Below, one piece after another: positions 52,669-62,981 of a stretch of 64,000 nt of DNA (positions are counted from its first letter, which is position 1; every line of letters begins with the position of its first letter). The notes below the pieces were generated by a model. The model did no database searches. It had not been told where the DNA came from and worked only from the letters and a program-made list of their open reading frames with translations. The stretch lies in UHGV virus genome UHGV-0370399; one strand, written 5' to 3'. This stretch comes from a virus. The position numbers were made by a program, and so were the translations under genes.

Positions 52669-53217
52669 ATGAAGAAATTGATTCTAGGTTTGTGCTTAAT
52701 GTTTACAGCACACTTATCTTATGCAGTTGACTGCCCAGAGCTATCAATTAGCCAAAAAGTAAACATGTTAAAAGCTTACCAGTATGGTGAGAATAACATG
52801 GGTAAAGGTTGGGGTATCACTCTAGCTGCTATAGCCTTACAAGAGTCAGAGTTAGGTCTGAAGGTAGAGAATAAAAAGACCCATGACTATGGTATCTTCC
52901 AGAATCACTTGAAGACTGTTGTAAAGCGTAACAAAATTAGTCCTAATGTGGCTAAAAAGAAACTCTTAAAAGACTTTGACTATGCTGCGAAGGAAACTCA
53001 CAAAGAGCTTGAGTTTTGGACAAAGGTGCATGGTCAGCCAAAGTCAAAGAAGACTTTACAAAAAGTTTTAGCATCATATAATGCTGGGTATTCGTACAGA
53101 ATCCCTAAAGCTAAGAAATATTCTCAAGATGTCTATAACAACATGAAAGTTATTGCTCAATGTGAATTTGCAACAAACATTTCTAAGGTAAACCATGAAA
53201 AAATTAAAAAAGTCTGA
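52669..53217 (+). CDS. signal-peptide lytic transglycosylase (SLT domain), endolysin candidate
   Basis: N-terminal MKKLILGLCLMFTAHLSYA signal; catalytic-region motifs QESE, YGIFQ and AYNAGY match the SLT family. Confidence 0.55.
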   Translation: MKKLILGLCLMFTAHLSYAVDCPELSISQKVNMLKAYQYGENNMGKGWGITLAAIALQESELGLKVENKKTHDYGIFQNHLKTVVKRNKISPNVAKKKLLKDFDYAAKETHKELEFWTKVHGQPKSKKTLQKVLASYNAGYSYRIPKAKKYSQDVYNNMKVIAQCEFATNISKVNHEKIKKV

Positions 53218-53890
53218 TGAAGTACTGTGTCATGCTTACGACTTACATCCTCATGAGTTAGGTCTTGATTCCTGTGTATGGACTCCAGAACAGTGTAGGG
53301 ATTTTGAAGACACTGCAAGAGAAGTTGTATGTTCACTCGAAGAGTTCCACACATCAGAACCAATTGTGAATGTTGTAGATAAAGAGACTGGACAAACTAT
53401 AGGTGTAAGTCGTGATAGCTTAGTCATAGTCAATAAAGACCTTGTAGAAAAAGGGAATCTCATCTTAGCAGATATTGATGGTGTTCTTACAAATTTTAAT
53501 CACGAAGATTGTTCAACGGAATTGACTGACGGTTCATTCTCGCAGTACACTAATCTTCTTGACTCTGTAAGAGCAAAACCAACGTATGTTTTCAATATCA
53601 TTGATGCAATTGCTAATCATGCTGCTGTTGGACTCTTGACAGCGAGAGGTGAATCTCAGAGAATACCTACTGAGATGTTTTTAAGGCATAACACAGAGCA
53701 TGACTACATGCTTTTTATGCGTGGTTTTGGGACTAACTCTATAAGCGCAGAAAGTTTGAAAGTGAGGATGATTCAGTCTTGCATTCTGCCTTACTTTAAT
53801 ATAGTATGTTTTATAGAAGACACAGAGAAGAATGTGCAGAAGGTGAACAGAATCCTTCCACACATTAAAACCATGTTAGTTAAACATTGA
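53195..53890 (+). CDS. HAD-superfamily phosphatase-like protein (5'(3')-deoxyribonucleotidase-like)
   Basis: DIDGVLTNF matches HAD motif I as in NT5C-type nucleotidases; LLTARGE and FIEDTEKN fit motifs II and IV. Confidence 0.45.
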   Translation: MKKLKKSDEVLCHAYDLHPHELGLDSCVWTPEQCRDFEDTAREVVCSLEEFHTSEPIVNVVDKETGQTIGVSRDSLVIVNKDLVEKGNLILADIDGVLTNFNHEDCSTELTDGSFSQYTNLLDSVRAKPTYVFNIIDAIANHAAVGLLTARGESQRIPTEMFLRHNTEHDYMLFMRGFGTNSISAESLKVRMIQSCILPYFNIVCFIEDTEKNVQKVNRILPHIKTMLVKH

Positions 53891-55737: not shown

Positions 55738-55938
55738 ATGGCTGACTTCTGCAAAGACTGTTCTATCGAAATGTTCGGACGTGATACAGGTGACTTAAAA
55801 GGTCTTATCACTGAAGATGACTTTAAAGCTGGTTATGCAATGCCAGTAATCTGTGAAGGTTGTGGATGTATCTGGGTAGACCACGAAGGGCAACGTGTAA
55901 AGCCTTCAGAAGATAAAGAATCTTGGGAGAGATGTTAA
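55738..55938 (+). CDS. small zinc-ribbon protein
   Basis: CKDCS ... CEGCGC Cys pairs; SD aaggtg. Confidence 0.4.
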   Translation: MADFCKDCSIEMFGRDTGDLKGLITEDDFKAGYAMPVICEGCGCIWVDHEGQRVKPSEDKESWERC

Positions 55939-56724
55939 ATGGGTATTGTAAAAATCATCAATGGCGATATCTTTGCTGCATTTGATAAAGGTAAGTTTGA
56001 CATCATTGGTCATGGTTGTAACTGCATGAACCTAATGGGTGCAGGTATCGCTGACAAGATTTCTAAACTTTACCCAAAAGCATATGAGACCGATACAGAA
56101 GTTTATCTCTATGCAGGTGGTATAGGTCATAAACCCTGTGAGAATTTACTAGGTAATTTCTCTGTAGCACGCTTAAAACAAGGTCGTATAGCTAACCTTT
56201 ACACTCAGCTTAAGACTGGTAAAGATGCCCGATACAGTGCTTTAGAGTCATCTTTGAAGCAACTTAACAGATACTGTGAAGTTAATCAGTTGAAGAAAGT
56301 TGGTTTACCTATGATTGGTGCAGGTATCGGTGGACTTGACCCTCAAGCCGTCACAGTTATCATCAATCAGGTGATGAAGAGTGTAGATGTTTATCTATAT
56401 GTCTATGAAGGAGAGATGTACCACAAGTTACTCTCAGGTTGGAAGAACTACTGTGAACCAGAATACTTTGCAGGTGTAGCAGTGTTCACAGATAACGCAG
56501 TTACCCTCTTCAGACGAAGAAAAGGTAAGATACATCAAAGTAACCCTCCGGTTGAAAAGATGTCTCTGAGTAACGCTCTAGTTACCCACCTGTCGAAGAG
56601 CAATCACAGGATTGCAGTAACATTTGGCAGTGATGCAGATACTTATATCTATGCAAGAACTGATGAGGATATCGAGACAGTTTTCTCTTCACCAGAAGTT
56701 ACCTTCTTAGACGCAAAGAACTAA
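55939..56724 (+). CDS. macro-domain (ADP-ribose binding/processing) protein
   Basis: GDIF...DIIGHGCNCMNLMGAGIA and VGLPMIGAGIGGL parallel the macro-domain VNAAN..L.GGGV and glycine-rich loops. Confidence 0.6.
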   Translation: MGIVKIINGDIFAAFDKGKFDIIGHGCNCMNLMGAGIADKISKLYPKAYETDTEVYLYAGGIGHKPCENLLGNFSVARLKQGRIANLYTQLKTGKDARYSALESSLKQLNRYCEVNQLKKVGLPMIGAGIGGLDPQAVTVIINQVMKSVDVYLYVYEGEMYHKLLSGWKNYCEPEYFAGVAVFTDNAVTLFRRRKGKIHQSNPPVEKMSLSNALVTHLSKSNHRIAVTFGSDADTYIYARTDEDIETVFSSPEVTFLDAKN

Positions 56725-56791
56725 GAAACTCTGTAGGATATTCACAATAGCCTAAGCCTTTCTTATCTGGTAAATTTTTCAGGTAAGGAGG

Positions 56792-56975
56792 GCTTTTTCA
56801 TTTCAGAATTGTGCAGGTAGAGTTCTGTAGAGAAATCTGTAGAGAGAATTTTGAACTCCAAAGAGAAAATTCATTTTCAAACTGTGCAGATAATCTCCAA
56901 AGAGCTTTTTCATTTTCAAAACGTGCAGACCACACTCAGGTCGGGCAAGAAAAATCATTTTAGGATTGTGCAGGT
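56792..56975. repeat. four iteron-like copies of a 20 nt motif
   Basis: tcattt(t)cA(g/a)AAtTGTGCAG at about 56799, 56871, 56911 and 56956; tandem tctgtagaga x2 at 56821-56848. Confidence 0.7.
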
Positions 56976-57000
56976 AGGTTTTTATAGAGAGCCAGACCAA

Positions 57001-57031
57001 ACCCTCTCCCCCTCTTACTCCCCCTCTCCCC
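57001..57031. repeat. polypyrimidine C/T mirror-repeat tract
   Basis: accctctccccctcttactccccctctcccc, pure pyrimidine on the + strand. Confidence 0.7.
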
Positions 57032-57153
57032 AAAAGTCAAGAGAAAAATTTGTAGCGGATTGAAAAATAATTCTTGATTTGTGTTCTGTTTTGTGGTAGT
57101 CGTGTGCGCCCGTTTCATTACAGTTTTGCCAAAAATATTTTTAAAATTTTTTC

Positions 57154-57245
57154 TTGACTCTTTGAACGTGGTTATCTAGTATTTGCATCAACGGGGAGGG
57201 AATGACCTTCCCCACTAAATAAAGTCCTAAACTGGAGATTCAAAA
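57154..57245 (+). promoter_or_regulatory. cassette module A1: promoter, 5' stem-loop and RBS
   Basis: TTGACT-17-TAGTAT, then caacGGGGAGGGaatgaCCTTCCCCactaaataaagtcctaaactGGAGattcaaaaATG. Confidence 0.65.
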
Positions 57246-57629
57246 ATGGCATATCGTGCACCTAAATTCATCAACAAAGACAACTTTCGCAACGCACTGG
57301 AGAAGTCACTTGATGAGAATTTTAAAGGGAATAAAATTGTTGTTCACGCATTCAATTTTAAGTATGATATCAACGGGAATAAAATCAACCACTACACGGC
57401 AACTATGATAGATGGTACGCTTTCAAGCGAAAAAACTATTCTCAATGCACTTGCTGGACGTGGGAAAAACCTGATAAGATGCGATAAGAGACGTTATCAG
57501 GGCGGCGCATATGGTTATGATGATGCTGTCTATCATCTTGAAAATATGGGCTATTCAGTAGAAAAAGTTGGAGCGTCGCAAATCATCGGTAGTGATGGTT
57601 ATGTAACAATCCTCAAAATTAACAAATAA
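57246..57629 (+). CDS. cassette gene 1, hypothetical protein
   Basis: 127 aa; preceded by module A1; last codons (LKINK) lie inside the next module. Confidence 0.5.
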   Translation: MAYRAPKFINKDNFRNALEKSLDENFKGNKIVVHAFNFKYDINGNKINHYTATMIDGTLSSEKTILNALAGRGKNLIRCDKRRYQGGAYGYDDAVYHLENMGYSVEKVGASQIIGSDGYVTILKINK

Positions 57630-57715
57630 AGTACTTTACAAGGGGCTTATAGTTCGATAAAGTAAGCCCCAGATAAAGAGCTTTACCACTAAATCCTAAA
57701 TTGGAGAACTTAAAA
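57630..57715 (+). promoter_or_regulatory. cassette module B1: hairpin overlapping promoter, plus RBS
   Basis: aagtacTTTACA then GGGGCTTA-13 nt-TAAGCCCC hairpin (57642-57670) containing TAAAGT, then agataaagagctttaccactaaatcctaaattGGAGaacttaaaaATG. Confidence 0.6.
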
Positions 57716-58009
57716 ATGGCTATTATCAAAAACGTTGTAATTACCGCAAAGACTCGTGATGACGCTCGTATCATGGCTAAAAAGTTATGCGGGAAAGTGG
57801 TTGACAACGGAAAACAATCTGCTGTAAGGTGGGGCGTGAAGGTTGATAAACAGTTGAAGTTAAAAAATTCACCGATAAACCTTTTTACATGTGTAAACAC
57901 TATCGGGAAGACAAATGTATACACGAAAAAGGCATATATTAGACGCGTAGCATTAACATCCCCCATTCGCACAATGAGAAGTTATGCAAAGCTGAAAATT
58001 AACAAATAA
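57716..58009 (+). CDS. cassette gene 2, hypothetical basic protein
   Basis: ORF-track start is the TTG inside the module; ATG at 57716 follows the conserved GGAG; ends KLKINK. Confidence 0.5.
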   Translation: MAIIKNVVITAKTRDDARIMAKKLCGKVVDNGKQSAVRWGVKVDKQLKLKNSPINLFTCVNTIGKTNVYTKKAYIRRVALTSPIRTMRSYAKLKINK

Positions 58010-58094
58010 AGTACTTTACATGGGGTTTAAAAGTTGATATCTTAAGCCCCAGATAAAGAGCTTTACCACTCAATCCTAAACTGGAGATTCAAAA
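58010..58094 (+). promoter_or_regulatory. cassette module B2
   Basis: TTTACA, hairpin GGGGTTTAA ... TTAAGCCCC (58022-58050), conserved RBS segment. Confidence 0.6.
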
Positions 58095-58607
58095 ATGAAA
58101 ACTGTAGACGCTACCTTTGAAGTTGTAAAAGAAAAATTCACCATTATCTATGAAGCTGTTAATTGCTTTGAAGCAAGTCATAATCTTGACAATTGGAAGT
58201 TTACAGATGACCATCAAGGCGGTGTAACTGTTAAAAATCCTAACTGCCAGCATAATGAATTTAAATATGCAATCCCTTTACATTACAGCCTTAAACAGCT
58301 TTCTAGTGACTATGCAAAACAAGGCCGGGAAAATCCATCAAAAGAGGCTTACGCAAGCTTACAGAAAGAACTAGAAAGAGATTTAGAGGCGTCAGAGTAT
58401 AACCTTGCCGCGAAAGTTGTGGATGCAAACGGTAGCACGGTTTTAGAAAGTTTTTATCTTGGTTATGCTTTCGATTGGTGCTATCGTGACGGCGATGATT
58501 TAGAAGATAGACTAAAAGAAGAGGTGAACAACGCAGACGCAGAATCTGAAGTATTAGAACGTTTGGAATCGTTGAAAGACTCAGTGATGAATATCTTTAA
58601 GAACTAA
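58095..58607 (+). CDS. cassette gene 3, hypothetical acidic protein
   Basis: 170 aa after module B2. Confidence 0.5.
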   Translation: MKTVDATFEVVKEKFTIIYEAVNCFEASHNLDNWKFTDDHQGGVTVKNPNCQHNEFKYAIPLHYSLKQLSSDYAKQGRENPSKEAYASLQKELERDLEASEYNLAAKVVDANGSTVLESFYLGYAFDWCYRDGDDLEDRLKEEVNNADAESEVLERLESLKDSVMNIFKN

Positions 58608-58996: not shown

Positions 58997-59322
58997 TGAT
59001 GGGTATCACTGCAATCATTGCCATTATAGCACTTTACAAGGCTTATAGCGCATATACTTTGGCAAGTAAGGCAATCACGCAACAGGTTAACAATAATCTC
59101 GTGATGAGCTTTCTAGAGCGTTTAAGTGATGAGCAAATAAAACGGTTAGAAATGAGCTTCAGATTCCAATCAAAAACTTATCAAATCAGCGACATTTTCA
59201 AAGATGATTTCCAGTTAGTCGATGATTATAACTCTCTGATAAATGCTTTAAATATCAGTGATTTAAAAGATTATCATGCTGTAATTGTTCAAGAATTGAG
59301 CAAACGAAAACAAAACTGTTGA
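58990..59322 (+). CDS. cassette gene 5, membrane-anchored hypothetical protein
   Basis: N-terminal hydrophobic helix; coupled to gene 4 with no module between; stop TGA lies inside the next TTGACA. Confidence 0.45.
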   Translation: MLMMGITAIIAIIALYKAYSAYTLASKAITQQVNNNLVMSFLERLSDEQIKRLEMSFRFQSKTYQISDIFKDDFQLVDDYNSLINALNISDLKDYHAVIVQELSKRKQNC

Positions 59323-59413
59323 CACTGATTTCTAGATAGATTAAATTACTAATCAACGGGGAGGGAATGACCTTCCCCACTAAATAAAGTCCTTAAACTA
59401 GGAGATTCAAAAA
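59319..59413 (+). promoter_or_regulatory. cassette module A2
   Basis: TTGACA-17-TAAATT then the conserved stem-loop leader and GGAG. Confidence 0.65.
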
Positions 59414-59686
59414 ATGTATACTACTAACAACGGTCGCACCTTAAATGTCACCTTGCGTCACTATGTAGACGGTGTGATGTGCTTTGAAGATTTACGGGCT
59501 GAGCAACACATCTTAAATTGGCAAGTTGCAGGACTCCAAAAAACTGCTACCGGATACGGTAAAAAGATTCCAACTAGCTGGAAAGTATACTACGAAGGCC
59601 GTTTGCGTAGAATTTATCAAGATGTACACAGCAATAGCGCAACAAGTTACATCATGGTAAAAGGTAAAAAGCTGCATTTAGTATAA
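59414..59686 (+). CDS. cassette gene 6, hypothetical protein
   Basis: 90 aa after module A2. Confidence 0.45.
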   Translation: MYTTNNGRTLNVTLRHYVDGVMCFEDLRAEQHILNWQVAGLQKTATGYGKKIPTSWKVYYEGRLRRIYQDVHSNSATSYIMVKGKKLHLV

Positions 59687-59772
59687 AGTACTTTACAAGG
59701 GGCTTATAGTTCGATAAAGTAAGCCCCAGATAAAGAGCTTTACCACTCAATCCTAAATTGGAGAACTTAAAA
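59687..59772 (+). promoter_or_regulatory. cassette module B4 (near-identical to B1)
   Basis: About 86 bp direct repeat of 57630-57715, hairpin 59699-59727. Confidence 0.6.
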
Positions 59773-60177
59773 ATGGCTATTAATAACCGTGAATTATCAA
59801 CCTTAAAAGCACGTTTGACCGTTAATCGAATCAACATTATGACATCATCAGCGCCTGATGAGACATTGCACAACATTATCGGAAAGATTCAAAGCGTTAT
59901 TTTAGACGTTGAAAACGTAAAAAATTCATTGGCTGACGTTGCAGCAGGTATCACGCTAGACGGTGCGCAATATGAAATGTCCGACATGTTAGGCAAATCT
60001 AAGGTAATGAATAAAGAGTTAGATTTGAAAATGTTCCGATTTGCTGTTAAAGTGTGGCTATCTGTCGAGTATGATGCTAACTTTGCAATCGCTGACTTTT
60101 TCGCCACTTGGTTGCAGCGTAATTTGACTAATCATGACTTCCGTAATATCTGTGATGCAATTTATGCAGAACTTTAA
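59773..60177 (+). CDS. cassette gene 7, hypothetical protein
   Basis: ATG at 59773 (ORF-track start is the TTG inside the module); N-terminus MAI as in genes 2 and 9. Confidence 0.45.
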   Translation: MAINNRELSTLKARLTVNRINIMTSSAPDETLHNIIGKIQSVILDVENVKNSLADVAAGITLDGAQYEMSDMLGKSKVMNKELDLKMFRFAVKVWLSVEYDANFAIADFFATWLQRNLTNHDFRNICDAIYAEL

Positions 60178-60186
60178 AAAATTTTG

Positions 60187-60278
60187 TTGACACTGATTTT
60201 TAGATAGGTTAAATTACACATCAACGGGGAGGGAATGACCTTCCCCACTAAATAAAGTCCTAAACTGGAGATTCTAAA
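60187..60278 (+). promoter_or_regulatory. cassette module A3
   Basis: TTGACA-17-TAAATT then the conserved stem-loop leader. Confidence 0.65.
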
Positions 60279-60527
60279 ATGATGAATTTTTTAAATATCC
60301 CTGATACTTGCCGACTGTTGACGCAACCAGAAAATTTAGGCAAACCTTTCCTGTACCATATGCCAGACAATACACCAAAAACATATAGCTACACGGTTAA
60401 CCGCTTTACGGGTTACGCTGCAAAAAACGGTTACAAGGTTACTACTCAAAAAGTAACACTATTTACAAATATCGAAGAGCTTCCAACAATCGCTGTAAAA
60501 CTAATATTTACGAAGAAGACGCAATAA
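60279..60527 (+). CDS. cassette gene 8, hypothetical protein
   Basis: 82 aa after module A3. Confidence 0.45.
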   Translation: MMNFLNIPDTCRLLTQPENLGKPFLYHMPDNTPKTYSYTVNRFTGYAAKNGYKVTTQKVTLFTNIEELPTIAVKLIFTKKTQ

Positions 60528-60613
60528 AGTACTTTACAGGGGGCTTGGAAGTTGATATCTTAAGCCCCAGATAAAGAGCTTTACCACTAAATCCTAAACT
60601 GGAGAACTTAAAA
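60528..60613 (+). promoter_or_regulatory. cassette module B5
   Basis: TTTACA, hairpin 60540-60568, conserved RBS segment. Confidence 0.6.
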
Positions 60614-60817
60614 ATGGCTATTATCAACGGCTTACACATTGAAACAACTCACATCAAAGATATTAAAGTTGGTGATGTAGTCCTTTCCCACGGCGTAGAG
60701 AAAACTGTCACTGCAAAGGATATTAAAGAGGATTCTTTCATGGGTAGGACTCTTTTCGGTGATTCTTATTGCTTAGGTTACCTTGCAGTTTTAAAAGTTG
60801 TCAAAAATAACAAATAA
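60614..60817 (+). CDS. cassette gene 9, hypothetical small protein
   Basis: 67 aa; starts MAII; ends KNNK inside the next module. Confidence 0.45.
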   Translation: MAIINGLHIETTHIKDIKVGDVVLSHGVEKTVTAKDIKEDSFMGRTLFGDSYCLGYLAVLKVVKNNK

Positions 60818-60902
60818 AGTACTTTACAAGGGGCTTAAAAGTTGATATCTTAAGCCCCAGATAAAGAGCTTTACCACTAAATCCTAAACTGGAGATTCAA
60901 AA
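60818..60902 (+). promoter_or_regulatory. cassette module B6
   Basis: TTTACA, perfect 9 bp hairpin GGGGCTTAA ... TTAAGCCCC (60830-60858). Confidence 0.6.
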
Positions 60903-61445
60903 ATGAAATGTTTTCACGGTACTACTCAAGAAAATTTCCTCAACCTGATTAATAACGGTGATAAACCATCAGGCGCATGGAATTGTTCGGATATGGACGG
61001 CAATTTTTACGTGTATCCAGAAAATAAAATCTATGGCGACGATGAGGAAGAAATAATCTCTGAAGGTATCCAGCAAGCTCTTGGCAATGCCACTATAACG
61101 GCAGCTTTTCAGATGAAAACTCAAAATATTGTTATCTTGGAACTTGATATTCCAGAGGATGAGTTGAATGATGATTATTCTTGTGATAATATGTCGAGCG
61201 TGGCAAGTTTTACAGAGTATTTTGATATAAGCTGGATTAAAAAGGTTTACATCACTGAATTTAATGCCATGTTTTCACCTTTTTGTCTTCCTTCATTGGA
61301 TAACCCAAATTTAAATTATCTTGATGAGTCTCTGGAGCTTCTTGCTAAAAGTGTTCAACAGTCGGACAGTATTCAGGTTTTTTGTGACATCATGGATACA
61401 CTAACAGGAAACATCACAGAAGAAGATTTAAAGAGCTTTTTCTAA
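60903..61445 (+). CDS. cassette gene 10, hypothetical acidic protein
   Basis: 180 aa after module B6; followed by a terminator. Confidence 0.45.
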   Translation: MKCFHGTTQENFLNLINNGDKPSGAWNCSDMDGNFYVYPENKIYGDDEEEIISEGIQQALGNATITAAFQMKTQNIVILELDIPEDELNDDYSCDNMSSVASFTEYFDISWIKKVYITEFNAMFSPFCLPSLDNPNLNYLDESLELLAKSVQQSDSIQVFCDIMDTLTGNITEEDLKSFF

Positions 61446-61511: not shown

Positions 61512-61745
61512 ATGCTAACAACCATTTATCTCATCCTCTCAATTTGTAATGGCCATTCATGTGATTTTAAAGGGCTTGAGGAGTTCACAGGAAGTAAAGA
61601 AAATGCTATTCAAGTTTGCCAGATAGCAAGGCAAGACTACCCCGCAAGTGATGATATTCAGTGTTACTTTAAGACAGAAGATGACGACGGAATCTATTTC
61701 GATAGTGTTGATGGTCAGTATGAAATTATCATTGAAAAAGACTAG
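61512..61745 (+). CDS. cassette gene 11, small protein with hydrophobic N-terminus
   Basis: 77 aa; SD aggggg; stop TAG forms the first bases of the next -35 hexamer. Confidence 0.4.
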   Translation: MLTTIYLILSICNGHSCDFKGLEEFTGSKENAIQVCQIARQDYPASDDIQCYFKTEDDDGIYFDSVDGQYEIIIEKD

Positions 61746-61835
61746 ACAAGCCTGATAAAAATCTGTAAATTGTCAATCAACGGGGAGGGAATGACCTTCC
61801 CCACTAAATAAAGTCCTAAACTGGAGAATCTAAAA
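61743..61835 (+). promoter_or_regulatory. cassette module A4
   Basis: TAGACA-17-TAAATT then the conserved stem-loop leader. Confidence 0.6.
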
Positions 61836-62238: not shown

Positions 62239-62307
62239 TGTTCGAGGGGGTTTATCTAAAAGGGATTCACTTAAAAGATTTCTTTATAGATAAGCTTAAA
62301 AAATTGC

Positions 62308-62429
62308 TTGCAATCAGATATCAAAACAAGTAAATTACTAATCAATGGGGAGGGAATGAACTTCCCCACTAAACAAAGCCCTTAAACTAGGAGATTCTAA
62401 AATTCAACTACATCCGTTCAATTCATGTC
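62308..62429 (+). promoter_or_regulatory. cassette module A5 (degenerate; start codon displaced)
   Basis: TTGCAA-17-TAAATT with stem-loop variant GGGGAGGGaatgaaCTTCCCC; the usual ATG position reads aaaattc and the gene ATG is 30 nt further. Confidence 0.5.
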
Positions 62430-62915
62430 ATGTCAAAGCCTGTTAAAGATACCTATGAATTCCGTTGTAATGGGGTACACTTTGCAACCATCACTAAGTC
62501 AGAAAACGGGGCTTATTATGTACATCGTCGTAATGTTGCAACCGTTGTAGTCTCTCACTTTATGCAAGCTGTAGCGGAATTATTACCGTTATTCTTAGAG
62601 ATTTACTTAGATGAGTGTAAAAACGTTCACAACCACGTTAAAAACCTTTTAAACGGTTATAAAATGGCTTATGAACGTTCTATTAAGTCACTGAATAAGT
62701 TTTACAATGCACCTGCAAATACTGTTTCAATGGCTTATGATGTAAACGGTGAGTTAGTTAGCCTCTTCGAAGTGGAAGGAATTAAGCTGTATAATTTACG
62801 TCCTAGCGGTTACTCTAAGACTCTTGGTGAAGGTTTATCCTTTAATATCAAGAACTTAGAAAAAACTTTAAAAGACATTGAAAAAGATATTGACGAGACA
62901 CTTAAAAGTCTGTAA
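62430..62915 (+). CDS. cassette gene 13, hypothetical protein
   Basis: 161 aa; ATG far from the module SD; stop TAA lies inside the next -10 hexamer. Confidence 0.4.
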   Translation: MSKPVKDTYEFRCNGVHFATITKSENGAYYVHRRNVATVVVSHFMQAVAELLPLFLEIYLDECKNVHNHVKNLLNGYKMAYERSIKSLNKFYNAPANTVSMAYDVNGELVSLFEVEGIKLYNLRPSGYSKTLGEGLSFNIKNLEKTLKDIEKDIDETLKSL

Positions 62916-62981
62916 ATTGTCAATCAACGGGGAGGGAATGACCTTCCCCACTAAGTAAAGTCCTAAACTGGAGTTATCAAG
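62890..62981 (+). promoter_or_regulatory. cassette module A6
   Basis: TTGACG-17-TAAATT then the conserved stem-loop leader. Confidence 0.6.

What the first reader, a model, noticed from the sequence alone, without database searches (positions are those of the whole stretch)
55939..56724. Phage-encoded macro-domain protein, candidate eraser of ADP-ribosylation
Seen in sequence: a 261 aa protein with GDIF...D(I)IGHGCNCMNLMGAGIA and a second glycine-rich loop IGAGIGG, matching the macro-domain N-terminal and diphosphate-binding loops. It sits at the end of the metabolism block just before the cassette array. Established knowledge: macro domains bind or hydrolyse ADP-ribose adducts, and several bacterial defence or toxin systems act by ADP-ribosylating DNA, RNA or proteins. 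Inference: this protein may reverse a host ADP-ribosylation-based defence or regulate a phage ADP-ribosyltransferase.
Basis: partly seen in the sequence, partly recalled or inferred. Interest (0 to 1): 0.6.

Follow-up and report, generated by a model that had tools for sequence, protein, structure and literature searches.

The report
Felix-type phage macrodomain, likely anti-DarT
This FelixO1-like phage gene really does encode an ADP-ribose-binding macro domain, related to the T4 protein (Tk.4/AdfM) recently shown to protect T4 from the DNA-ADP-ribosylating DarTG2 defence; it is already annotated in many phage genomes, and its only unusual features are a fast-evolving extra domain of unknown fold and a glutamine where DarG-type enzymes have their catalytic lysine.

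Summary
Window 55939-56724 (+) is a 261-aa ORF with the quoted motifs. It passes Pfam Macro (32.3 bits against a cut-off of 22), and a confident AF2 model matches TARG1, DarG and Poa1p.

The window is a Felixounavirus, and more than 200 GenBank records already call this gene "phosphatase" or "macro domain protein". Its macro part is 35% identical (E 3e-24) to T4 Tk.4/AdfM. A Tk.4 knockout sensitises T4 to DarTG2 (2025 preprint).

Three points refine the picture:

- **Gln in place of Lys.** The protein belongs to an HGCNC/NxYTQ clade. Gln90 is invariant in all 31 phage-type homologs aligned, in T4 Tk.4 and in 80 bacterial homologs. It occupies the catalytic-Lys position of DarG, PhiKZ-AdfM and TARG1. 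Asn28 is kept.
- **Allele swap.** Felixounaviruses carry two allele classes about 42% identical, exchanged at one shared breakpoint.

The best explanation is an orphan-antitoxin-like eraser of DarT2 DNA ADP-ribosylation (confidence about 0.5). The main rival is a Poa1p-like role on small ADP-ribose derivatives. No phage ADP-ribosyltransferase is annotated. Interest is modest.

The parts
55939..56724 (+). Complete ORF, 261 aa plus stop: macro domain followed by a C-terminal orphan domain
   Evidence: PHROG 335 full-length E 1.9e-113; 99.6% aa identity to phage heid 'putative phosphatase' heid_44
55939..56409 (+). Macro domain (residues 1-157), HGCNC/NxYTQ clade (T4 Tk.4/AdfM type, Poa1p-like)
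   Evidence: Pfam Macro 32.3 bits > GA 22; AF2 model with Foldseek TARG1 E 8.5e-10, Taq DarG TMt 0.83, Poa1p TMt 0.75; hhalign to DarG-type macros prob 99%, E 2e-18; 35% identity to T4 Tk.4
56011..56052 (+). Loop 1: H25-G-C-N28-C...M33-G-A-G36-I-A38. Asn28 is equivalent to PhiKZ AdfM N23 and Taq DarG N22
   Evidence: Invariant in 31 homologs and in 80 bacterial homologs. N23A abolishes PhiKZ AdfM activity in vitro (PMC13309987). Poa1p has H23-S-C-N-C
56194..56208 (+). N86-L-Y-T89-Q90 motif. Gln90 occupies the position of the catalytic Lys of DarG, PhiKZ AdfM and TARG1
   Evidence: Profile alignments. Invariant N/Y/Q in 31 phage-type homologs, T4 Tk.4 and 80 bacterial homologs
56308..56340 (+). 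Loop 2 (phosphate-binding): P124-M-I-G127-A-G129-I-G-G-L-D134
   Evidence: aligns with DarG 'PPLGxxNGGLD'
56410..56439 (+). Linker helix (residues 158-167)
   Evidence: DSSP on the AF2 model, helix H158-167
56440..56721 (+). C-terminal beta-rich orphan domain (residues 168-261; six strands and one helix)
55925..55929 (+). Shine-Dalgarno-like GGGAG, 9 nt upstream of the ATG and inside the 3' end of the upstream ORF
   Evidence: sequence read directly
55738..55938 (+). Upstream 66-aa Cys-rich ORF (CxxC...CxxCxC) whose TAA stop abuts the macro ATG. Probably co-translated, but not a conserved partner
   Evidence: not conserved in distant two-domain loci or with T4 Tk.3; no Pfam match
56754..56795 (+). 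Terminator-like hairpin (17-bp stem, T tail) that ends the operon
   Evidence: sequence
56081..56910 (.). Segment replaced in 'type B' Felixounaviruses (rest of the gene plus terminator). Flanks are 94-98% identical, and no nucleotide similarity is detectable across 56081-56777

Best explanation
The gene encodes a two-domain early/middle phage protein. Residues 1-157 form a macro domain that binds ADP-ribose. By homology to T4 Tk.4/AdfM, it most likely strips ADP-ribose from thymidines that the host DarT2 toxin places on single-stranded phage DNA, which would restore replication. In effect it is an 'orphan antitoxin' carried by the phage against DarTG2-type defence. It belongs to a distinct macro clade (signature H-G-C-N-C ... 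N-x-Y-T-Q ... P-x-I-G-A-G) that keeps the Asn essential in PhiKZ AdfM but has an invariant Gln where DarG and TARG1 have the catalytic Lys. Catalysis, if it occurs, must therefore be Lys-independent. Residues 168-261 are a fast-evolving beta-rich domain found only fused to this macro clade in Ounavirinae-like phages. I infer that it is a targeting or partner-binding module, for example for a host toxin or for the phage replication machinery. Shown here: the ORF, the fold, the motif pattern, homology to Tk.4 and DarG, the orphan status of the C-domain, and the allele swapping. Shown by others: the Tk.4 knockout is DarTG2-sensitive, and PhiKZ AdfM removes T-ADPr in vitro. Inferred: that this protein has the same substrate and role, and what the C-domain does.
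For: Macro fold and ADP-ribose-binding loops are present. BLASTP to T4 Tk.4 gives 35% identity, E 3e-24, over residues 3-157 with identical HGCNC, NLYTQ and IGAGIG motifs. T4 tk.4 was the single significant HIDEN-SEQ hit under DarTG2, and a clean knockout sensitised T4. hhalign of the family against DarG-type macros (PhiKZ gp104, Mtb and Taq DarG) gives 99% probability, E 2e-18. NCBIfam and PADLOC DarG models are the only hits in those libraries. Asn28 matches the N23 whose mutation kills PhiKZ AdfM. The gene is stand-alone, with no DarT in the window. It is the last gene of an operon with rIIA/rIIB. A gene annotated 'putative phosphatase' in the related phage Bas63 is non-essential on all hosts shown (orthology assumed). 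Felixounaviruses carry two ~42%-identical allele classes swapped at a fixed breakpoint in otherwise 94-98% identical genomes, a pattern typical of counter-defence genes. The hosts (E. coli, Salmonella) are the organisms in which DarTG2 defence was studied.
Against: There is no experiment on this protein or on any Felixounavirus ortholog. The catalytic Lys of DarG, TARG1 and PhiKZ AdfM is replaced by Gln90. De-ADP-ribosylation has not been shown biochemically even for T4 Tk.4; the preprint only calls it 'likely'. The score against the DarG equivalog model is 47 bits against a cut-off of 250. The same clade is common as a stand-alone ~150-aa gene in diverse bacteria, with no DarT2 nearby and no conserved neighbours, which fits a more general ADP-ribose-processing enzyme. 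At 35% identity, shared biological role is not guaranteed.
Confidence: 0.5

Rival explanations
1. A Poa1p-like small-molecule enzyme. The macro domain would hydrolyse a free ADP-ribose derivative (ADP-ribose-1''-phosphate, O-acetyl-ADP-ribose or similar) as part of phage NAD/ADP-ribose housekeeping. This is the meaning behind the GenBank labels 'phosphatase' and 'O-acetyl-ADP-ribose deacetylase'.
For: The H-x-C-N-C loop is shared with yeast Poa1p (H23-S-C-N-C), and Poa1p and BT1257 are among the best PDB sequence and fold matches. Some records assign it to the Poa1p_like family. The clade lacks the DarG/TARG1 Lys. Bacterial homologs are stand-alone, with no DarT2 hit in the loci; a few sit next to ARH, PARG, NAPRTase or RtcB. 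The phage encodes NAMPT and PRPP synthetase about 7-9 kb upstream.
Against: The nearest functionally tested relative, T4 Tk.4, has a defence-specific phenotype against DarTG2. Poa1p has Ser where this clade has the invariant Gln, and it matches more weakly than TARG1. A housekeeping role explains neither the two deeply diverged swapped alleles nor the fast-evolving extra domain.
Confidence: 0.2
2. An eraser or sponge for a different ADP-ribose-based defence. Candidates are removal of ADP-ribose from RNA or protein (for example CmdT-type mRNA ADP-ribosylation), or binding or degrading ADP-ribose-derived immune signals (Thoeris His-ADPR or cyclic ADPR isomers). The action could even be non-catalytic, with Gln90 marking a binder rather than an enzyme.
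For: Macro domains can bind His-ADPR, as in the Thoeris II ThsA effector. The AdfN paper explicitly anticipates counter-defences to RNA ADP-ribosylation. The catalytic Lys is absent. The C-domain could be a partner-binding module.
Against: There is no direct evidence for any of these substrates. The strictly invariant polar residues H25, C27, N28, C29, N86, Y88 and Q90 across phages and bacteria look like an active site rather than a mere binding pocket. The only phenotype known for the clade is against DarTG2.
Confidence: 0.15
3. A regulator of a phage-encoded ADP-ribosyltransferase, reversing the phage's own Alt/Mod-like modifications.
For: T4 combines ADP-ribosyltransferases (Alt, ModA, ModB) with the macro protein Tk.4 (general knowledge).
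Against: No ADP-ribosyltransferase is annotated among the 153 features of the 99.6%-identical phage heid. Alt/Mod enzymes modify arginine, which macro domains are not known to cleave (established knowledge). Many hypothetical ORFs were not individually profiled here, so a hidden transferase is not excluded.
Confidence: 0.03

Closest known systems
T4 Tk.4 = AdfM (anti-DarT factor macrodomain; HIDEN-SEQ preprint 10.1101/2025.11.20.689424)
   Same: Same macro clade: 35% identity over residues 3-157, E 3e-24, with identical HGCNC, NLYTQ and IGAGIG motifs, including Gln at the DarG Lys position. Both are stand-alone phage genes with no toxin partner.
   Different: Tk.4 is a single 155-aa domain, whereas this protein has an extra ~95-residue C-terminal domain. 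The genomic contexts differ (tk/vs cluster against the end of the rII-lysis operon). Function has been tested only for Tk.4, and only genetically.
PhiKZ gp104 = AdfM of chimalliviruses (Cell Rep 2026, PMC13309987) and the bacterial DarG2 macrodomain (PDB 5M3E, 5M3I)
   Same: Homologous macro fold (hhalign 99%, E 2e-18; Foldseek TMt 0.77-0.83). The catalytic Asn (N23/N22 = N28 here) and the GGLD loop are conserved.
   Different: These carry the FPTK motif with a catalytic Lys (K78/K80), where this protein has LYTQ. PhiKZ gp104 hits Mtb DarG at E 9e-25, whereas this protein hits the DarG family models at only ~47 bits. DarG2 has a C-terminal DarT-binding domain, and no similarity to it was found here.
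Human TARG1/OARD1 (PDB 4J5Q/R/S)
   Same: Best solved-structure match by sequence profile (E 3.5e-17) and by fold (E 8.5e-10, TMt 0.81-0.85).
   Different: The TARG1 catalytic dyad K84/D125 aligns with Q90/G131 here. TARG1 has no C-terminal domain.
Yeast Poa1p (ADP-ribose-1''-phosphate phosphatase; PDB 6LFQ-6LFU) and Bacteroides BT1257 (2FG1/2AFC)
   Same: Shared H-x-C-N-(C/D) loop; profile E 2e-15 to 4e-14; fold TMt 0.75. This is the source of the 'phosphatase' annotation.
   Different: Poa1p has Ser where this clade has Gln in the N-x-Y-T-Q position, and it is longer, with insertions. Its substrate is a free metabolite.
AdfN (T4 30.3), the NADAR-type orphan antitoxin against DarTG1 (PMC11825919)
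   Same: The same counter-defence logic: a phage-borne stand-alone copy of the antitoxin's enzymatic fold that erases DNA ADP-ribosylation.
   Different: Unrelated fold (NADAR rather than macro), guanine-specific rather than thymine-specific, and a different toxin (DarT1).

Membership tests
Macro domain superfamily (Pfam PF01661) | Sequence score above Pfam's gathering cut-off | tested here: met
   32.3 bits against 22, E 1e-7, residues 25-141
Macro domain superfamily (Pfam PF01661) | Three-layer alpha/beta/alpha macro fold | tested here: met
   AF2 pLDDT 89.6. Foldseek against PDB gives 235 hits at E<=1e-3; the 50 listed include TARG1, DarG, Poa1p and viral macro domains
Macro domain superfamily (Pfam PF01661) | ADP-ribose-binding loops (G-D near the N-terminus; loop 1 with N...G-x-G; loop 2 G-x-G-x-G-G) | tested here: met
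   G9-D10, N28...G34-A-G36 and G127-A-G129-I-G-G are present and conserved. Binding itself was not tested
T4 Tk.4-type AdfM (HGCNC/NxYTQ clade) | Significant homology to T4 Tk.4 with the same signature motifs | tested here: met
   35% identity, E 3e-24; HGCNC, NLYTQ and IGAGIG are shared
T4 Tk.4-type AdfM (HGCNC/NxYTQ clade) | Required for phage growth on DarTG2-expressing hosts | not testable with these tools
   Shown only for T4. No Felixounavirus data were found
T4 Tk.4-type AdfM (HGCNC/NxYTQ clade) | Single-domain ~155-aa architecture | tested here: not met
   261 aa with an additional C-terminal domain
DarG2 antitoxin / PhiKZ-type AdfM | Catalytic Lys in the F-P-T-K motif (Taq K80, PhiKZ K78) | tested here: not met
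   Gln90 aligns with the Lys (hhalign); it is invariant in the family
DarG2 antitoxin / PhiKZ-type AdfM | Catalytic Asn (Taq N22, PhiKZ N23) | tested here: met
   N28, five residues before the Met of the MGAG motif as in PhiKZ and DarG
DarG2 antitoxin / PhiKZ-type AdfM | Score above the NCBIfam equivalog cut-off (NF048014) | tested here: not met
   47.4 bits against 250; only profile positions 4-150 of 338 match
DarG2 antitoxin / PhiKZ-type AdfM | Adjacent DarT toxin gene | tested here: not met
   tblastn with P. aeruginosa DarT2 finds nothing in the window; neighbours are small phage ORFs
DarG2 antitoxin / PhiKZ-type AdfM | C-terminal DarT-binding domain | tested here: not met
TARG1/OARD1 | Catalytic dyad Lys84 / Asp125 | tested here: not met
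   These align with Q90 and G131
Poa1p-like ADP-ribose-1''-phosphate phosphatase | H-x-C-N-C loop (Poa1p H23...S30) | tested here: inconclusive
   H25-G-C-N-C is shared, but S30 corresponds to L32 here (N31-L32-M33-G34 against Poa1p G29-S30-W31-G32), and the N-x-Y-T-Q motif is C-L-F-T-S in Poa1p
Poa1p-like ADP-ribose-1''-phosphate phosphatase | Phosphatase activity on ADP-ribose-1''-phosphate | not testable with these tools
   Needs an enzyme assay

The most novel reading that the evidence does not exclude
The HGCNC/NxYTQ macro clade (T4 Tk.4, this protein, and hundreds of stand-alone bacterial genes) would be a mechanistically distinct, lysine-independent thymidine-DNA ADP-ribosylglycohydrolase. 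In Ounavirinae it would have acquired a new, rapidly evolving C-terminal domain that binds the DarT2 toxin or docks onto replicating ssDNA. That would convergently recreate the two-pronged 'enzyme plus toxin-binder' architecture of DarG using an unrelated fold. The two deeply diverged, recombining alleles would then track different host DarT variants.
Probability: 0.12. Interest if true: 0.6.

Novelty: new variant of a known kind. Interest (0 to 1): 0.33.

Why it matters
If the assignment holds, FelixO1-like phages carry a ready-made counter to DarTG2-type DNA ADP-ribosylation. These phages are widely used for Salmonella/E. coli biocontrol and diagnostics, so this would help predict their host range on strains encoding DarTG. 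The Gln-for-Lys clade raises a concrete enzymological question, because T4 Tk.4 already shows that a member of this clade defeats DarTG2: how is the thymidine-ADP-ribose bond cleaved without the DarG/TARG1 lysine? The orphan C-terminal domain and the two swapped alleles mark a small, tractable arms-race locus. None of this changes the general picture that phage macrodomains erase defensive ADP-ribosylation, which was published in 2025-26.

Tried and rejected

2. C-domain as cREC_REC, the domain fused to a distant homolog (P0026): no Pfam signal at E<=10.

3. C-domain as a widespread module: rejected. An exhaustive profile search of 1.84e9 proteins gave only the same family, fragments of it, and beta-propeller repeat false positives. 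BFVD gave only the SUSP2 ortholog. The afdb50 fold library was unavailable.

4. C-domain as a conserved DNA binder or DNA mimic: not supported. pI ranges from 4.8 to 9.5 across homologs.

5. The upstream 66-aa Cys-rich ORF as a conserved partner, or as an equivalent of T4 Tk.3: rejected. It is not conserved in distant loci and has no Pfam hit.

6. Antitoxin origin shown by DarT linkage in bacteria: not found. There is no DarT2 hit in 80 bacterial loci, no conserved neighbours and no DUF4433 among 101 neighbours.

7. A phage-encoded ADP-ribosyltransferase: none is annotated in phage heid.

8. 'VpaE1_ev035' as an experimentally evolved allele swap: probably not. The name appears to follow a faecal-virome study's isolate naming, though I did not confirm this in the paper.

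9. Direct data on Felixounavirus and DarTG: none in the library. The LeRoux 2022 paper is not held. PhageMaP does not discuss the gene in its text.

10. I could not find the Bas63 GenBank accession to verify that its 'gene 95 putative phosphatase' is the ortholog.

11. Rfam scan of the downstream non-coding and cassette region: nothing at E<=0.1.

Full report
**Observation.** The window holds an ATG-initiated ORF at 55939-56724 (+) of 261 aa. The opposite strand is closed by many stops. A GGGAG Shine-Dalgarno-like element lies 9 nt upstream. The TAA stop of a 66-aa upstream ORF directly abuts the ATG.

**Which genome this is.** The region is 94.7% identical in nucleotides to Escherichia phage wV8, and the protein is 99.6% identical to 'putative phosphatase' heid_44 of Escherichia phage heid, a Felixounavirus of the Ounavirinae. 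More than 200 GenBank records carry the gene, including FelixO1 itself. They label it 'phosphatase', 'macro domain protein', 'O-acetyl-ADP-ribose deacetylase' or 'Poa1p_like'. The macro assignment is therefore not new.

**Fold.** Several independent lines agree.
- Pfam Macro scores 32.3 bits against a cut-off of 22.
- PHROG 335 matches over the full length at E 1.9e-113.
- The only NCBIfam and PADLOC hits are DarG models. Both cover just the macro part, and the NCBIfam hit is far below its equivalog cut-off (47 against 250 bits).
- A profile of 31 homologs hits TARG1 (E 3.5e-17), Mtb DarG (5e-16), Poa1p (2e-15) and Taq DarG (9e-14) in the PDB.
- An AlphaFold2 model built on that alignment is confident (pLDDT 89.6, pTM 0.88). 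It shows a macro fold at residues 1-157, a helix at 158-167 and a beta-rich domain at 179-249.
- Foldseek places the model next to TARG1 (TMt 0.81-0.85), Taq DarG (0.83) and Poa1p (0.75).

**Relation to known function.** Two 2025-26 papers define 'AdfM', the anti-DarT factor macrodomain.
- In T4, tk.4 was the only transposon-screen hit under DarTG2, and a clean knockout became DarTG2-sensitive. The authors infer enzymatic removal of ADP-ribose from DNA but do not show it.

I extracted T4 Tk.4. It is 35% identical to residues 3-157 of the present protein (E 3e-24) and shares the HGCNC, NLYTQ and IGAGIG motifs. No paper in the searchable library treats the Felixounavirus protein.

**Catalytic residues.** PhiKZ gp104 is a true DarG-type macro: phmmer to Mtb DarG gives 9e-25, and the motif is FPTK. 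A profile-profile alignment of the present family against PhiKZ gp104 and the Mtb and Taq DarG macros gives 99% probability, E 2e-18. It pairs T89 with T77 and Gln90 with the catalytic Lys78. Asn28 pairs with Asn23, and the GGLD loop is shared. The TARG1 dyad K84/D125 likewise aligns with Q90/G131.

Gln90 is invariant in all 31 homologs and in T4 Tk.4. A scan of one genome per prokaryotic species found 479 loci encoding ~150-aa single-domain relatives in many phyla. In the best 80 of these, H25, G26, C27, N28, C29, M33, G34, G36, N86, Y88, Q90, P124, G127 and G129 are all invariant, and the pentapeptide is NAYTQ or NGYTQ.

The protein therefore belongs to a distinct HGCNC/NxYTQ macro clade. 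Its H-x-C-N-C loop resembles Poa1p. It is homologous to DarG and TARG1 but cannot use their lysine chemistry.

None of the 80 bacterial loci contains a DarT2 homolog. Immediate neighbours are not conserved. Pfam on 101 neighbours shows no DUF4433 and only scattered ADP-ribose or NAD genes: ARH x2, PARG x1, NAPRTase x1, RtcB x1. The 'phage stole an antitoxin' story is thus not demonstrated for this clade, and a broader ADP-ribose-processing role remains a live rival.

**The C-terminal domain.** Residues ~168-261 have no Pfam match other than an insignificant NAC-domain hit (E 0.12), and no PADLOC match. Their only PHROG is the family's own.

The domain diverges much faster than the macro domain: 47-55% against 76-82% identity in the closer homologs, and 12-23% against 38-53% in distant ones. 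Its pI ranges from 4.8 to 9.5, which argues against a conserved nucleic-acid-binding or DNA-mimic surface. Its function is unknown. A variable protein-protein interaction module is my inference.

**Context and population genetics.** In phage heid, and in three distant metagenomic contigs that encode two-domain homologs, the gene keeps the same place. It is the last gene of a block running rIIA-rIIB, lysin, HAD/PNKP-like and then small ORFs. NAMPT and PRPP synthetase lie upstream. A terminator-like hairpin follows at 56754-56795.

The upstream Cys-rich ORF is not conserved among these loci, nor with T4 Tk.3. No ADP-ribosyltransferase is annotated in the phage.

Felixounaviruses carry two discrete alleles. 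Type A is the allele in this window. Type B is found in 13 records, including BPS17L1, Si3, finno and phiWec172. The two are about 42% identical, have the same architecture, and show no intermediates. In contig L006 and in every type-B genome listed, nucleotide identity of 86-94% stops at window ~56081, which is codon ~48, just after the conserved loop-1 coding stretch. In L006 it resumes at 97.7% from ~56910. This cassette-like replacement is what one expects of an accessory counter-defence gene.

The PhageMaP supplement for Bas63 lists a single 'putative phosphatase' (gene 95). Its fitness scores are positive (0.62-1.13) in all conditions seen, so it is dispensable on those hosts. I could not verify that gene 95 is the ortholog.

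**Verdict.** The most likely function is AdfM-like erasure of DarT2 DNA ADP-ribosylation (about 0.5). The main rival is a Poa1p-like small-molecule role (about 0.2), followed by other ADP-ribose-based defences or binding only (about 0.15). Regulation of a phage ADP-ribosyltransferase is unlikely.

The gene family, its annotation and the counter-defence concept are already known. What is new here is the Gln-for-Lys clade definition, the orphan C-terminal domain and the allele swap. This is a new variant of a known kind, of modest interest.

Noticed in passing
window 56798-56990: Between the macro gene's terminator and the first promoter cassette lie three to four short direct repeats with a ~40-bp period (core CATTTT(C/A)A(A/G)(A/C)(C/T)(T/G)GTGCAG(A/G)). 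They look like iterons or a protein-binding array. They are followed by a C/T-rich tract (CCCTCTCCCCCTCTTACTCCCCCTCTCCCC) at ~57003-57032. Part of this stretch falls inside the segment exchanged between allele types.
   Followed up: partly
window 57143-57231, 59308-59396, 60176-60264, 61732-61820, 62297-62385, 62879-62967: A repeated ~89-nt cassette precedes each small downstream ORF. It consists of a TTGAC-type -35 element, TAAATT, a hairpin (GGGGAGGGAATGACCTTCCCC) and AAATAAAGTCCTAAACTGGAGATTCAAAAATG (RBS plus ATG). There is no Rfam match at E<=0.1.
   Followed up: partly
window 57615-57734, 57995-58114, 59672-59791, 60513-60632, 60803-60922: A second class of 120-nt direct repeats (68-92% identical). 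Two of the copies overlap the starts of ORFs that both begin MENLKMAI (57701 and 59758). This suggests duplicated gene 5' ends or mobile promoter/leader modules.
   Followed up: no
window 56081 and ~56777-56910; L006 8143-8934: The macro gene body plus its terminator is replaced as a unit by a ~42%-identical allele in 13 sequenced Felixounaviruses and in one metagenomic contig. All share the same 5' breakpoint, just after the conserved HGCNC...MGAGIA coding stretch.
   Followed up: yes
window 55738-55938: A 66-aa ORF with CxxC...CxxCxC (zinc-ribbon-like) whose stop abuts the macro start codon. It is 100% identical in the type-B contig L006 but not conserved in more distant relatives, and it has no Pfam family.
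   Followed up: partly
P0026 (339 aa, metagenomic; no locus fetched): A distant homolog fuses an HGANC-type macro domain to Pfam cREC_REC ('cyclic-phosphate processing receiver domain', E 4.7e-7). This hints that some members of the wider clade act in RNA-end or cyclic-phosphate processing rather than DNA de-ADP-ribosylation.
   Followed up: no
window 53195-53890: A 231-aa ORF annotated 'polynucleotide kinase' in phage heid. It contains a HAD-type DxDG motif (LADIDGVL), and its orthologs hit HAD_PNKP only weakly or faintly. It is conserved in the same operon as the macro gene in all distant two-domain loci. It looks like a phosphatase-only PNKP relative.
   Followed up: no
L009-L088 (bacterial genome loci): 479 prokaryotic species genomes encode stand-alone ~150-aa macros with the invariant H-G-C-N-C and N-x-Y-T-Q motifs, in variable gene neighbourhoods. 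This is a large, apparently uncharacterised cellular clade sharing the Gln-for-Lys active-site signature with T4 Tk.4.
   Followed up: partly
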